Source: Desulfurococcaceae archaeon (GTDB lineage: Archaea > Thermoproteota > Thermoprotei_A > Sulfolobales > Desulfurococcaceae). Taken from it: a DNA stretch of 64,000 nt. The DNA is taken from assembly GCA_038816475.1 (NCBI GenBank), contig JAWBAI010000007.1, positions 1 through 64,000 of the forward strand, in the 5' to 3' direction. The notes below the pieces were generated by a model. It worked only from the letters and a program-made list of their open reading frames with translations. It did no database searches and had not been told where the DNA came from. How positions within the stretch are numbered: the first letter of the stretch is position 1; each line of letters opens with the position of its first letter. The translations under genes and the position numbers were made by a program. Positions 1 to 55,628 of this stretch are shown here, piece after piece.

Positions 1-335
<335 letters not shown>

Positions 336-469
336 ACAGCTCACCCGGGGGCGGGTAGTAGACTTAGGACTGCTTGCTCCGTGGGTTTGGGTATAAGCTT
401 GCTCACTGGGCTCCTCTATAGCGCTTTAACCCCGAGCTCTCCTGTTGGAATCATAGTGGTGAATGGTGG

Positions 470-54196: not shown

Positions 54197-54670
54197 ATGA
54201 CTAGGGTTGCCGAAAGGTTTAGTTTTGTCAACTTCGGGAACATATGCTCCTCGTGTAGTATAAACTGCTGTAGAAGATTCTACGCTGTACTACTACCCGA
54301 GGAGGAAGAGGAGTTCAAAGACGTAGCCTTTACAATTAGCACTGAGCGCGGTGAAGTAAAATGCATAGGCTCCAGAAGCAGTAAACCATGTCCCTTTCTC
54401 GACAGCAGAAGCCTATGCACAATTTACAATAAACGACCCCTGGACTGTAGACTATGGCCAATCATAGTGTACATAGACTTTAAAACAAGAGAAAAAGTGG
54501 TTTACTTAGACATGGACTGTCCAGCAGCAAAAGAAGGTAGAATACCCAGGGAAATCATAGAAAAAATAGTCGAGGAAATCAAGAAAGTAGAATTAAACGA
54601 ATCATGGCTTGAAAAGTACACACTAGCTCCGTGGCCTAACAACCTTGTGGAAATAACCAGGTACAAATAG
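54197..54670 (+). CDS. YkgJ-family (CxxCxxCC) cysteine cluster protein
   Basis: CSSCSINCC, CPFL, CTIY..RP..CR.WP. Confidence 0.9.
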   Translation: MTRVAERFSFVNFGNICSSCSINCCRRFYAVLLPEEEEEFKDVAFTISTERGEVKCIGSRSSKPCPFLDSRSLCTIYNKRPLDCRLWPIIVYIDFKTREKVVYLDMDCPAAKEGRIPREIIEKIVEEIKKVELNESWLEKYTLAPWPNNLVEITRYK

Positions 54671-54694
54671 TGTAACTAATGAGTTGAGAGAATA

Positions 54695-54876
54695 GGGCCG
54701 GTTTACCCCGATCTCCACATAGTAATAAGCTTAACATACTGGTAAAACACAGAGACCGAGACTGTAAACCAGCACCCACCCGGTTTCCCGGGTGAGCGCC
54801 AGCTTACAGCCCCGACCCCCGTGTTTCACCAGTATGTTAAGCTTATTACTATGTGGAAACCGGCTGGGCCCGGCCC
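54695..54876 (-). ncRNA. Rod-like hairpin RNA closed by a bulge-helix-bulge motif (predicted 161-nt circular RNA)
   Basis: 75-bp arms 54709-54783 / 54788-54862, 61 WC plus 14 G-U on the minus strand, GAAA loop; BHB GGGCCGG-GCCC-AGC / GGGT-AAA-CCGGCCC. Confidence 0.8.
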
Positions 54877-55037
54877 AGTTTATTACTTGTGCTGATCTTA
54901 TACATAAGTAGAATGTTTTGTATTAAATGTGCTTACTATCGTTTTTTCTGCGAACTCTTAAGGCGTTTTTGTATAAGTATTGTTCAAGTAATACGTTCTT
55001 CATAATATGGAATGGTATTACTTGAACTATCTTGTTC

Positions 55038-55628
55038 TTACTCTTGCTTCCGAGTATTCCATACTATGGTATATGGTGAGACCAAAATTATATTTTTACG
55101 TGTTATCTCATCAAAAGCCGAGGGGTGAATGTACAAGCCGTAGATCAATGCAACTATCCTGTAGTTGAGACCTAGGGTTGCTACTACTTTCTCTATTTTC
55201 TCAGCTAGATTAACTACATCCTCCCTGTGAACCCTAGATTTCGCTTCACCTATTACAACAACTCTTTCACCAGTTTTCCTGTGGTATCCAATACCGTAGA
55301 AGTCTACTTCAATGTACTTCCCGTCAACGGTGAAGAAAGCCCTGCTCAGCTGTGAAACCTCTATGTCCGCGTTGTGAAGTAACCATGATGGAAGAAAGAC
55401 TCTAGCTGTATCCTCGATTATGAGTCCATAAATATCACTTAGTCGACTAACTTCTCGCGATAGCTCGTTTACGTGTTTTCCTATCTTCTCAATCTTATCG
55501 GCGAGTAGCATAATCGTTTTCTTCAACTCATCAATGTCTTTACTATCAGTACTAGCGTCCAGTACCTCGTTGGAACCGCATTTTCTTCTGAATAGTCCTC
55601 TGTTAAACAGTACTGCGAAGAACCCCAA
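55038..55628 (-). CDS. Coiled-coil plus PD-(D/E)XK nuclease-fold protein (DUF3782-like)
   Basis: Heptad segment then G.IIED, IEVDFYG, IGEAK. Confidence 0.7.
   Translation of the reverse strand: MGFFAVLFNRGLFRRKCGSNEVLDASTDSKDIDELKKTIMLLADKIEKIGKHVNELSREVSRLSDIYGLIIEDTARVFLPSWLLHNADIEVSQLSRAFFTVDGKYIEVDFYGIGYHRKTGERVVVIGEAKSRVHREDVVNLAEKIEKVVATLGLNYRIVALIYGLYIHPSAFDEITRKNIILVSPYTIVWNTRKQE

What the first reader, a model, noticed from the sequence alone, without database searches (positions are those of the whole stretch)
54695..54876. Host-less BHB intron: a 75-bp RNA rod predicted to be spliced into a 161-nt circular RNA
Seen: arms 54709-54783 and 54788-54862 pair over 75 consecutive positions without a gap. 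61 pairs are Watson-Crick and all 14 others are A/C on the + strand, i.e. G-U on the minus strand, where the loop reads GAAA (GNRA). The base is a 7-bp stem GGGCCGG/CCGGCCC, a 4-bp helix GCCC/GGGU and 3-nt bulges AGC and AAA, each 3' of the central helix. A TATA-like TTATGTATAA lies about 22-30 nt upstream on the minus strand. Established: this is canonical bulge-helix-bulge geometry, cut by archaeal EndA after the second bulge nucleotide, and excised archaeal introns are circularised by RtcB. Inference: cleavage at AG|C (54864/54863) and AA|A (54703/54702) releases a 161-nt, almost fully double-stranded, viroid-shaped circle. The ligated exons form only a tiny hairpin, not a tRNA or rRNA, so the circle itself looks like the product. 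The AU-rich 30-bp perfect core (54714-54743) contrasts with the wobble-rich GC apex and might be a guide/antisense cargo or a protein site.
Basis: partly seen in the sequence, partly recalled or inferred. Interest (0 to 1): 0.88.

Follow-up and report, generated by a model that had tools for sequence, protein, structure and literature searches.

The report
Conserved hairpin RNA gene with splice-site base
A hot-spring archaeon carries a stand-alone gene for a 182-base, almost perfectly double-stranded RNA whose base looks exactly like an archaeal intron cut site; it always sits behind one nuclease gene and probably yields a small circular RNA rod of unknown function.

Summary
On the minus strand, 54695-54876 folds into a flawless 75/76-bp rod (-153 kcal/mol, z -18.6). 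Its base has canonical bulge-helix-bulge (BHB) geometry. It is the only such hairpin in the 1.15-Mb genome.

It belongs to a family that Rfam does not hold and that I did not find in print. A near-perfect hairpin lies 110-230 nt downstream of one orthologous gene, on the same strand, in 19 of 19 genome loci (three genera) and 21 of 21 metagenome loci. That gene encodes a coiled-coil plus PD-(D/E)xK nuclease (DUF3782/DUF8196). Paralog loci and one complete genome without the gene have no such hairpin.

Stem sequences differ between species, but pairing is kept through compensatory changes. G-U pairs fall on the gene strand. Length is 172-193 nt in 18 of 19 loci. A TATA-like box ends about 19-25 nt upstream.

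The BHB is strictly canonical in 8 of 19, near-canonical or relaxed in 5, altered in one clade of 5, and absent in 1. The genome encodes two EndA subunits and RtcB.

Cleavage and circularisation are inferred, not shown; no usable RNA data exist. The guide-RNA idea found no support. This is a new two-gene RNA-nuclease module worth testing at the bench.

The parts
54695..54876 (-). Whole hairpin RNA element (182 nt): predicted primary transcript body
   Evidence: Fold. Homologous elements of 172-193 nt in 18 of 19 loci. Covariance model R1 built from it finds 13 of 19 family loci.
54870..54876 (-). Outer stem h, 5' strand (GGGCCGG); pairs with 54695-54701
   Evidence: The stem covaries in homologs, e.g. 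GGGUCUG/CAGGCCC and GGCUCG/CGAGCU.
54695..54701 (-). Outer stem h, 3' strand (CCGGCCC)
   Evidence: The population variant 54697 G>A, seen in three DNA runs, turns one pair into G-U on the minus strand.
54866..54869 (-). Central 4-bp helix H, 5' strand (GCCC); pairs with GGGU at 54705-54708
   Evidence: H covaries with GUCC/GGAU and GUCU/GGAU in genus g35.
54705..54708 (-). Central helix H, 3' strand (GGGU)
54863..54865 (-). 5' bulge AGC; predicted cut between 54864 and 54863
   Evidence: Geometry. The cut position follows the rule that reproduces the tRNA intron lengths of this genome. Cleavage itself is inferred.
54702..54704 (-). 3' bulge AAA; predicted cut between 54703 and 54702
   Evidence: Cleavage itself is inferred.
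54709..54862 (-). 75-bp rod with GAAA loop (54784-54787); the basal part is AU-rich and perfectly Watson-Crick, the apical part GC-rich with most of the G-U pairs
   Evidence: In G000 the apical 38 pairs hold 11 G-U and the basal pairs hold 3.
54901..54908 (-). TATA-like box CTTATGTA, ending 24 nt before the element
   Evidence: In one search the best-scoring match to the TTTAAATA consensus ends 19-25 nt upstream in 17 of 19 loci. In the other two (L037 = G000 and L049) I picked a box at about 23-24 nt by eye.
54915..54924 (-). Conserved AATACAAAAC motif upstream of the TATA box; a second copy, TTATACAAAAAC, lies at 54965-54976
   Evidence: Alignment of intergenic regions. Function unknown.
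54979..55030 (-). Small conserved inverted repeat (16-nt arms, 20-nt spacer) just after the stop codon of the nuclease gene
   Evidence: pair I3. Arm sequence GTATTACTTGAA is conserved across genus g1. Possibly a terminator or a protein site; not resolved.
55038..55628 (-). Gene X: 196-aa protein with a long N-terminal helix (DUF3782-like) and a C-terminal PD-(D/E)xK nuclease domain (DUF8196). The start codon is uncertain.
   Evidence: Pfam gave only a weak DUF3782 hit, E 0.032. PF26618 = DUF8196 comes from precomputed labels. AlphaFold2 model, pLDDT 83.8. Foldseek top hits are EndoMS/NucS, MspJI and Cas4 SSO0001. E107, D109, E128 and K130 are invariant.

Best explanation
This is a stand-alone gene for a structured non-coding RNA of a family not in Rfam. 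The gene has its own TATA-type promoter, and transcription probably starts at or next to the first G of the outer stem (54876, minus strand). The roughly 182-nt transcript folds into a 75-bp rod closed by a GAAA loop. Its two ends pair into a 7-bp stem that, with a 4-bp helix and two 3-nt bulges, forms a canonical bulge-helix-bulge motif. The most likely fate is that the cell's tRNA-splicing endonuclease (a two-subunit EndA) cuts both bulges, at 54864/54863 and 54703/54702. RtcB would then join the ends of the excised 161-nt piece into a covalently closed, almost fully double-stranded circle. Such a circle would resist exonucleases and heat. Between species, only the shape is conserved: rod length, apical GNRA-like loop and base motif. 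The stem sequence is not conserved. The RNA therefore most likely acts through its shape as a ligand, regulator or scaffold, not as an antisense guide. The most likely partner is the coiled-coil PD-(D/E)xK nuclease encoded just upstream, with which it forms a conserved two-gene module. Shown here: the structure, conservation, compensatory evolution, strand specificity, linkage to the nuclease gene, promoter-like box, and presence of the enzymes. Inferred: transcription, cleavage, circularisation and any interaction with the nuclease.
For: Structure: z -18.6 on the minus strand and a much weaker plus strand. It is unique in the genome.

Family: a near-perfect hairpin of 67-125 pairs lies downstream of the X ortholog, on the gene strand, in 19 of 19 loci from genera g1, g35 and g6. 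The same holds in 21 of 21 ortholog loci among the 44 metagenome loci I examined, out of 80 returned.

Controls without a rod: 0 of 5 paralog loci in genomes, 0 of 21 paralog loci in metagenomes, and none in the complete X-less genome G126, using a detector that finds 18 of 19 known members.

Module: the X ortholog clade (at least 193.6 bits, next best 165.9) coincides exactly with the hairpin-bearing loci. Flanking genes differ between loci: the CxxCxxCC neighbour is present in 4 of 18 other loci and the A24 peptidase in 5 of 18.

RNA-level selection: the gene strand is more stable in 19 of 19 elements, and G-U outnumbers A-C 202 to 63. Between G005 and G003 there are 5 double compensatory changes, 4 single changes that keep pairing and 0 that break it. 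Two of three population variants inside the element create G-U on the minus strand. Length is 172-193 nt in 18 of 19 elements.

Promoter: the best TATA-consensus match ends 19-25 nt upstream in 17 of 19 loci; the other two, including this one, were placed by eye.

BHB: it is strictly canonical here and in 7 other genomes across two genera, with covariation in h, H and h'. The excised sizes are 153-164 nt, with one at 214 nt. The same test recovers 12 of 19 tRNA introns of this genome, whose bulge sequences include AGC and AAA. The BHB conformer lies within 0.4 kcal/mol of the MFE. Two EndA genes and RtcB are present.

Literature: BHB cleavage followed by circularisation is established for archaeal tRNA introns and rRNA precursors (passages read in PMC12558985; abstract of PMC3326292). 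It is also reported for a permuted SRP RNA (PMC4731332; title and start of abstract only).
Against: There is no evidence for a transcript, cut or junction.

The BHB is not universal. One clade of 5 genomes (G005, G003, G013a, G010, G014; 94/94 support) has a 7x5-type internal loop that cannot form the 4-bp helix together with h'. Three genomes (G007, G013b, G021) need a 4-nt bulge. Two (G012, G152) have a weak flanking helix. G004 has a perfect 96-pair hairpin with no bulges at all. All of them keep the rod, so its function does not strictly need a canonical BHB.

The BHB conformer is not the MFE fold.

No T-rich terminator separates gene X from the element, so read-through from X is possible.

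Linkage with X could in part be inherited gene order.

Only one X-less genome was scanned whole.
Confidence: 0.5

Rival explanations
1. The RNA is made but not spliced. It works as a linear long hairpin, and the conserved internal loop near its base is a protein-binding or folding feature that resembles a BHB in some lineages.
For: The rod is kept in 19 of 19 loci, but a strict BHB in only 8 of 19. One clade of 5 has a different, equally conserved loop with the 3' motif GGGGAUAAC, and G004 has none. The 3' motif GGGG(A)UAA is conserved in both classes, which would fit a sequence-specific binder.
Against: In this genome and 7 others the geometry is exactly canonical, with compensatory changes in all three helices. 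It passes the same test as real introns of this genome, and the enzymes are present. An exposed canonical BHB in an archaeal cell is expected to be cut (established knowledge; not tested here).
Confidence: 0.27
2. The hairpin is part of the 3' untranslated region of the nuclease mRNA. It would act as a cis element (stabiliser, terminator or insulator), or as a BHB intron in a 3' UTR, rather than as a separate gene.
For: It lies on the same strand, 110-230 nt downstream of X, in all loci. There is no T-run between the stop codon of X and the element in the window.
Against: A TATA-like box sits at a fixed distance, ending about 19-25 nt before the element, in genera g1, g35 and g6, while the distance to X varies. 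A separate small conserved hairpin directly follows the X stop codon. Pyrimidine-rich stretches follow the element.
Confidence: 0.1
3. The palindrome acts at the DNA level, as a cruciform or single-strand hairpin. It could be a recognition or cleavage site for the neighbouring PD-(D/E)xK nuclease, a recombination site or an origin.
For: X has a DNA-nuclease-type fold; top hits are EndoMS/NucS, MspJI and Cas4. G-T wobbles are also tolerated in single-stranded DNA. Perfectly Watson-Crick basal halves that change in step between species could reflect arm-to-arm gene conversion.
Against: The wobble bias always favours the strand that carries X and the promoter-like box, in 19 of 19 loci, although the loci lie in different genomic contexts. 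Only 78% of the arms are complementary as DNA. The GNRA-type apical loop and the BHB are RNA motifs.
Confidence: 0.08
4. It is a mobile miniature element (MITE) or an assembly fold-back artefact.
For: It is a long terminal-less palindrome. De Bruijn contigs break inside it.
Against: It is single-copy in the genome. It sits at the same position next to the same gene in 19 genome loci and 21 metagenome loci. Overlapping contigs from three independent DNA runs tile it. Compensatory evolution is evident.
Confidence: 0.02

Closest known systems
Archaeal BHB introns of tRNA and the BHB processing stems of pre-rRNA (EndA cut, RtcB ligation, circular by-products or intermediates)
   Same: It has the same motif: two 3-nt bulges on opposite strands, 4 bp apart, each 3' of the central helix, flanked by helices. 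The bulge sequences fall within the range of this genome's own tRNA introns. The enzymes are present. As with the 16S and 23S precursors, the excised piece rather than the 'exons' would be the product (passages of PMC12558985).
   Different: There is no tRNA, rRNA or mRNA host. The exons are 13 nt and about 8 nt and form only a mini-hairpin. The excised piece is a featureless 75-bp duplex, not an rRNA or a short intron. The BHB is altered or lost in 6 of 19 relatives that keep the rod.
Circular SRP RNA of Thermoproteus, made from a permuted gene by BHB processing (PMC4731332; I saw the title and start of the abstract only)
   Same: It is a stand-alone non-coding RNA gene whose functional form is proposed to be the BHB-excised circle.
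   Different: That RNA is a known universal RNA whose gene order is permuted. This one matches no known RNA, and a normal SRP RNA gene exists elsewhere in this genome. That the Thermoproteus processing goes through a BHB is recalled from memory, not seen in the text I read.
Metazoan tRNA intronic circular RNAs (tricRNAs; PMC4536317, search listing and start of abstract only)
   Same: They are stable circles released by the tRNA splicing machinery.
   Different: They derive from true tRNA introns, and they are eukaryotic.
Rod-shaped circular RNAs such as viroids (recalled; no call)
   Same: The predicted product has a comparable size and rod shape.
   Different: This one is encoded in chromosomal DNA as a single-copy gene. 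It is a perfect duplex without the internal loops of viroids, and nothing indicates replication.
RNA-protein two-gene modules such as type III toxin-antitoxin pairs (nuclease plus RNA inhibitor; recalled, no call)
   Same: A nuclease gene is tightly linked to a gene for a structured RNA.
   Different: The RNA is not a tandem repeat array. The nuclease has a PD-(D/E)xK fold, not a ToxN/AbiE-type fold. No toxicity or binding has been tested. The PADLOC library was not searched.

Membership tests
Archaeal BHB (hBHBh') splicing substrate | Two 3-nt bulges on opposite strands separated by a 4-bp helix | tested here: met
   GCCC/GGGU with bulges AGC and AAA. The conformer is within 0.4 kcal/mol of the MFE.
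Archaeal BHB (hBHBh') splicing substrate | Canonical polarity (each bulge 3' of its central-helix strand) and flanking helices h and h' | tested here: met
   h is 7 bp and h' is 75 bp. The same polarity and cut rule reproduce the intron length in 12 of 19 intron-bearing tRNA predictions of this genome. No in-register mirror-image motif occurs at the base.
Archaeal BHB (hBHBh') splicing substrate | Splicing endonuclease and RNA ligase encoded by the organism | tested here: met
   Two PF01974 genes (94 and 32.6 bits) and one RtcB gene (592 bits) in G000.
Archaeal BHB (hBHBh') splicing substrate | Actual cleavage at both bulges and a ligated junction | not testable with these tools
   The data available here could not address this; see Tried and rejected.
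Archaeal BHB (hBHBh') splicing substrate | Motif conserved in homologs | tested here: inconclusive
   Strictly canonical in 8 of 19. Weak h or h' in 2 (G012, G152). One 4-nt bulge in 3 (G007, G013b, G021). Altered in one clade of 5. Absent in G004.
BHB intron in the usual sense (interrupting a functional host RNA) | Ligated exons form a tRNA, rRNA or mRNA | tested here: not met
   No tRNA and no Rfam family. The exons of 13 nt and 8 nt plus tail fold into a 7-bp stem with a 7-nt loop.
Any Rfam 15 family (including SRP RNA and RNase P RNA) | Score at or above a family's gathering threshold | tested here: not met
   No match at gathering thresholds in the window. Only sub-threshold microRNA/snoRNA noise with permissive settings. 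SRP RNA and RNase P RNA are found elsewhere on contig C3.
MITE / repeated mobile element | Multiple copies, target-site duplications | tested here: not met
   Single copy at a fixed position next to the same gene in related genomes.
PD-(D/E)xK nuclease superfamily (neighbouring protein X) | Restriction-endonuclease-like fold with D...(D/E)xK residues | tested here: met
   AlphaFold2 model, pLDDT 83.8. Foldseek hits to EndoMS/NucS, MspJI, Cas4 and others, with probability 0.97-1.00 but E-values only 9e-4 to 1e-2. D109, E128 and K130 are invariant in 15 orthologs. Catalysis was not tested.

The most novel reading that the evidence does not exclude
A new kind of archaeal two-gene system. One gene has as its only product a fixed-length (about 160 nt, about 75 bp) covalently closed double-stranded RNA rod, cut out by the tRNA-splicing machinery. 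The other gene encodes a dedicated coiled-coil PD-(D/E)xK nuclease that reads the rod by shape rather than by sequence, for example as an RNA inhibitor, sensor or ruler of the nuclease. It would be the first 'host-less' BHB gene with a dsRNA product.
Probability: 0.3. Interest if true: 0.9.

Novelty: new variant of a known kind. Interest (0 to 1): 0.8.

Why it matters
Archaeal BHB processing is known for tRNA introns, rRNA precursors, a few mRNAs and one permuted SRP RNA. A gene that exists only to be cut out as a perfect double-stranded circle would add a new use of that machinery. It would also be a rare case of a long dsRNA made on purpose by a hyperthermophile.

The strict linkage to an uncharacterised nuclease family gives that family its first functional lead. 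DUF3782/DUF8196 relatives occur widely in bacteria and archaea according to automatic atlas labels.

The system is directly testable, because relatives with complete genomes (genus g35) carry the same module. The conserved length, combined with free stem sequence, also makes it a natural scaffold for producing circular RNA in archaea.

Tried and rejected
RNA evidence. When laid, its contigs cover the neighbouring genes of a related strain (54401-54694 and 55054-55568). On the element they cover only a 42-nt piece (54712-54753) with unlike flanks. This says nothing about expression. DNA contigs also break inside the palindrome.

Genome-wide RNA model search. Model R1 finds 13 of 19 known loci when given the loci directly. 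It found only 3 of the 18 known positive genomes in the family-wide genome search. The first-look filter is too dependent on sequence, so that search says nothing about absence.

Apex pattern search across the order (325 genomes). Matches fell in 15 genomes, but only 4 are homologs. Nine single-copy hits in family f13 lie in a conserved, GC-rich structured RNA that looks like rRNA (3 of them folded; not verified with Rfam). One is a short hairpin and one a repeated element.

Short palindromic BLAST hits to the AU-rich core in other genomes were folded and are chance AAGCTT-type palindromes.

Gapless and exact-seed hairpin scanners missed 10 and 2 of the 19 known members, or were too slow. I replaced them with a BLAST self-palindrome scan.

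The tolerant BHB scorer gives high pseudo-scores inside any perfect helix. I used only full scores, or hits with truly unpaired bulges.

MAFFT could not align the family in structural register, so no RNAalifold or pair-count statistics were made. Covariation rests on pairwise comparisons.

Guide hypothesis. The arm gives no match longer than 13 nt against its own genome, none in phage records, and X has no relatives in viral contigs.

Literature. Five searches and passages of two papers gave no description of this RNA or of a function for DUF3782/DUF8196. Supplementary files were not opened; circRNA tables in supplements could hold related entries for other species.

Full report
OBSERVATION. 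On the minus strand, 54695-54876 folds into a single hairpin. It has a 7-bp outer stem, a 6x6 internal loop or alternatively a 4-bp helix with two 3-nt bulges, a rod of 75/76 consecutive pairs (61/62 Watson-Crick plus 14 G-U), and a GAAA loop. The fold energy is -153 kcal/mol. Dinucleotide shuffles average -64.6 +/- 4.8 (z -18.6; 0 of 200 shuffles as good). The plus strand, where the 14 wobbles become A-C mismatches, reaches only -103.9 kcal/mol. In the whole 1.15-Mb assembly this is the only hairpin with 18 or more uninterrupted pairs and the largest self-palindrome. It is single-copy. Contigs of three independent metagenome DNA runs tile it, so it is not an assembly fold-back.

WHAT IT IS NOT. 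No tRNA and no Rfam 15 family overlaps it. The genome's SRP RNA and RNase P RNA lie on another contig. It has no relatives in phage records.

A CONSERVED FAMILY. A DNA search in 41 related genomes found only the conserved apex in two genomes of the same genus. Folding those loci revealed hairpins of the same design with unrelated stem sequence. Synteny was the key. The 196-aa ORF at 55038-55628 (protein X) lies upstream on the same strand in all of them. Searching X across the family (63 genomes, 22 with a match) and folding the DNA downstream of each hit gave a near-perfect hairpin in 19 of 19 loci of genera g1, g35 and g6. These hairpins have 67-125 pairs and 6-19 G-U, and start 145-229 nt after the end of the protein match. 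None was found in the 5 loci of genera g24, g26 and g28. Those 5 proteins are a paralogous group with long repeat coiled coils. A profile search over the order (325 genomes) shows a clean gap between the orthologs (at least 193.6 bits; 19 places) and everything else (at most 165.9 bits). Of the 80 metagenome loci returned for X, I examined 44. All 21 ortholog loci with enough downstream DNA carry the hairpin. None of the 21 paralog loci has a real rod, and two loci were too short. The two paralog loci with the highest pair counts are loosely paired coding-like sequence. As a negative control I fetched the complete 1.307-Mb genome of G126, a genus of the same family without X. I scanned it with a BLAST self-palindrome detector that recovers 18 of 19 known members. 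Its best hit is an ordinary 27-bp inverted repeat with a 45-nt spacer, equally stable on both strands. The genes flanking the X-hairpin pair differ between loci. The pair therefore behaves as a two-gene module rather than as a passenger of conserved gene order.

SELECTION ACTS ON AN RNA OF THE GENE STRAND. In all 19 elements the gene strand folds better than its complement. Across the family, G-U pairs outnumber A-C oppositions 202 to 63, and part of the A-C count comes from the base loops and flanks. Stem sequences are unalignable between most species, yet pairing is kept. Between the close pair G005 and G003 there are 5 double compensatory changes, 4 single changes that keep pairing and none that break it. 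More distant pairs show 12-21 double changes. Of three well-supported population variants inside the element, two (54697 and 54798) create G-U on the minus strand. The partner of the third was not covered. Element length is 172-193 nt in 18 of 19 loci, mostly 179-185, with one outlier at 236 nt. The apex is always a C-G-closed GNRA-like tetraloop or a G..AA pentaloop. The apical 38 pairs hold more G-C and G-U (387 and 129) than the basal pairs (314 and 69). This trend is strong in this genome (11 vs 3 G-U) but not universal.

ITS OWN PROMOTER. The intergenic region is conserved in blocks. In order along the gene strand these are:
- a small inverted repeat right after the X stop codon;
- a TTATACAAAA motif;
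- a variable stretch;
- a second AATACAAAAC motif;
- a TATA-like box (consensus YTTAAATA).
In one search the best match to that consensus ends 19-25 nt before the first base of the element in 17 of 19 loci. For the other two, including this window (CTTATGTA, 24 nt), I placed the box by eye. With the usual archaeal spacing (recalled knowledge), transcription would start at or next to the first base of the outer stem. Pyrimidine-rich stretches follow the element. I saw no T-run between X and the element, so read-through from X cannot be excluded.

THE BASE. In this genome the base is a textbook hBHBh' motif: h of 7 bp, H GCCC/GGGU, bulges AGC and AAA each 3' of H, and h' of 75 bp. This conformer is 0.4 kcal/mol above the MFE. 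A strict search (H 4/4, h 3/3, h' 3/3, 3-nt bulges) finds the in-register motif in 8 of 19 elements: G000, G015, G002, G016, G006, G151, G148 and G149. That covers two genera. All three helices covary, and the excised sizes are 153-164 nt, with 214 nt in G006. A new metagenome member (L134) adds another at 163 nt. G012 and G152 fail only through a weak flanking helix. G007, G013b and G021 need one 4-nt bulge. Five genomes that form one clade in the X tree (94/94 support) have a different conserved loop that cannot form H and h' together. G004 has no bulges at all. As a positive control, a slightly looser version of the geometry test (H 4/4 and h 3/3, with h' not required), using the same cut rule after the second bulge base, reproduces the ARAGORN intron length in 12 of 19 intron-bearing tRNA predictions of this genome. 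Their bulges include AGC, GGC, AAA and AGA. The genome encodes two EndA-family genes and RtcB. I take the two EndA genes to be the catalytic and structural subunits of the broad-specificity heterotetramer; that assignment is recalled, not tested.

PROTEIN X. There are no Pfam or NCBIfam hits at normal thresholds. A weak DUF3782 hit (E 0.032) and the precomputed label PF26618 = DUF8196 place it in a family of unknown function. The AlphaFold2 model (15-sequence alignment, pLDDT 83.8) has a 59-residue helix followed by an alpha/beta domain. Foldseek aligns that domain to PD-(D/E)xK nucleases: EndoMS/NucS, MspJI, Cas4 SSO0001, AF1548, Card1 and XisH. Probabilities are 0.9-1.0 but E-values are weak, 9e-4 to 3e-2. 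E107, D109, E128 and K130 are invariant in the orthologs. No relatives were found in viral contigs.

MOST LIKELY MECHANISM. A roughly 182-nt primary transcript folds from its GC-rich apex. Its paired ends present a BHB. EndA cuts at 54864/54863 and 54703/54702, and RtcB closes the 161-nt piece into a circle. The circle would be capped by the GAAA loop and by a 7-nt loop made of the four 3'-strand H bases, two bulge A's and the bulge C. Only shape and length are conserved, and no target was found. I therefore favour a shape-read ligand or regulator of the linked nuclease over a guide RNA. All steps after folding are inference. The main rival is a linear hairpin whose base loop binds protein; the BHB-less and altered relatives support it.

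COMPARISON AND NOVELTY. BHB-dependent circles are known for tRNA introns and rRNA precursors (PMC12558985, passages read; PMC3326292, abstract and one table passage). They are also reported for the Thermoproteus SRP RNA (PMC4731332, title and start of abstract). None of my five literature searches turned up a host-less BHB gene with a dsRNA product, this RNA family, or a function for DUF3782/DUF8196. Supplements were not seen. I rate it a new variant of a known kind. If the RNA-nuclease partnership is real, it would be a new kind of system.

LIMITS. There are no transcript data. Only one X-less genome was scanned whole. The family alignment is not in structural register. The organism and its relatives are unnamed handles.

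Noticed in passing
window 54965-55030 (minus strand): A small inverted repeat with sequence-conserved arms (GTATTACTTGAA type) sits directly after the stop codon of gene X. It is followed by two or three copies of an ATACAAAA(C) motif, conserved across genus g1. It could be a terminator plus regulator sites for the hairpin promoter.
   Followed up: partly
L073 8470-8581 (G126:C1, about 127270-127381): The X-less genome G126 has a 27-bp inverted repeat whose arms begin GGTATTACCCTTGAAAAG. This resembles the small conserved repeat next to the hairpin gene. It lies between unrelated genes, with an ABC-type permease-like ORF nearby.
   Followed up: partly
G000 contig C3 57000-60110 (L062, L063): The weaker-scoring EndA-family gene (32.6 bits) lies about 1.5 kb upstream of RtcB on the same strand, so splicing endonuclease subunit and ligase are neighbours.
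   Followed up: no
G000 contigs C1 18927-20834 and C2 93164-93251: ARAGORN calls a tRNA-Ser with an 1817-nt 'intron' and a 'tRNA-Stop (tta)' with a 13-nt intron that has a clean BHB. Both are probably mis-calls of intron position or anticodon, but they were not checked. Twenty of the 45 predicted tRNAs carry introns.
   Followed up: no
window 1-343: The 3' end of the 23S rRNA is cut by the contig start, so the rRNA processing-stem BHB of this genome could not be compared with the hairpin's BHB.
   Followed up: no
G000 contig C3 72606-72702: This is the second-largest self-palindrome of the genome (103 nt, 68%). It is a 17-bp perfect inverted repeat around a roughly 60-nt irregular spacer, of similar stability on both strands.
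   Followed up: partly
L059 (G013:C73) and L047 (G013:C34): Genome G013 holds two X-hairpin modules of different base class. The X frame in L059 has an internal TAG. This could be a second strain in the bin or a decaying duplicate.
   Followed up: no
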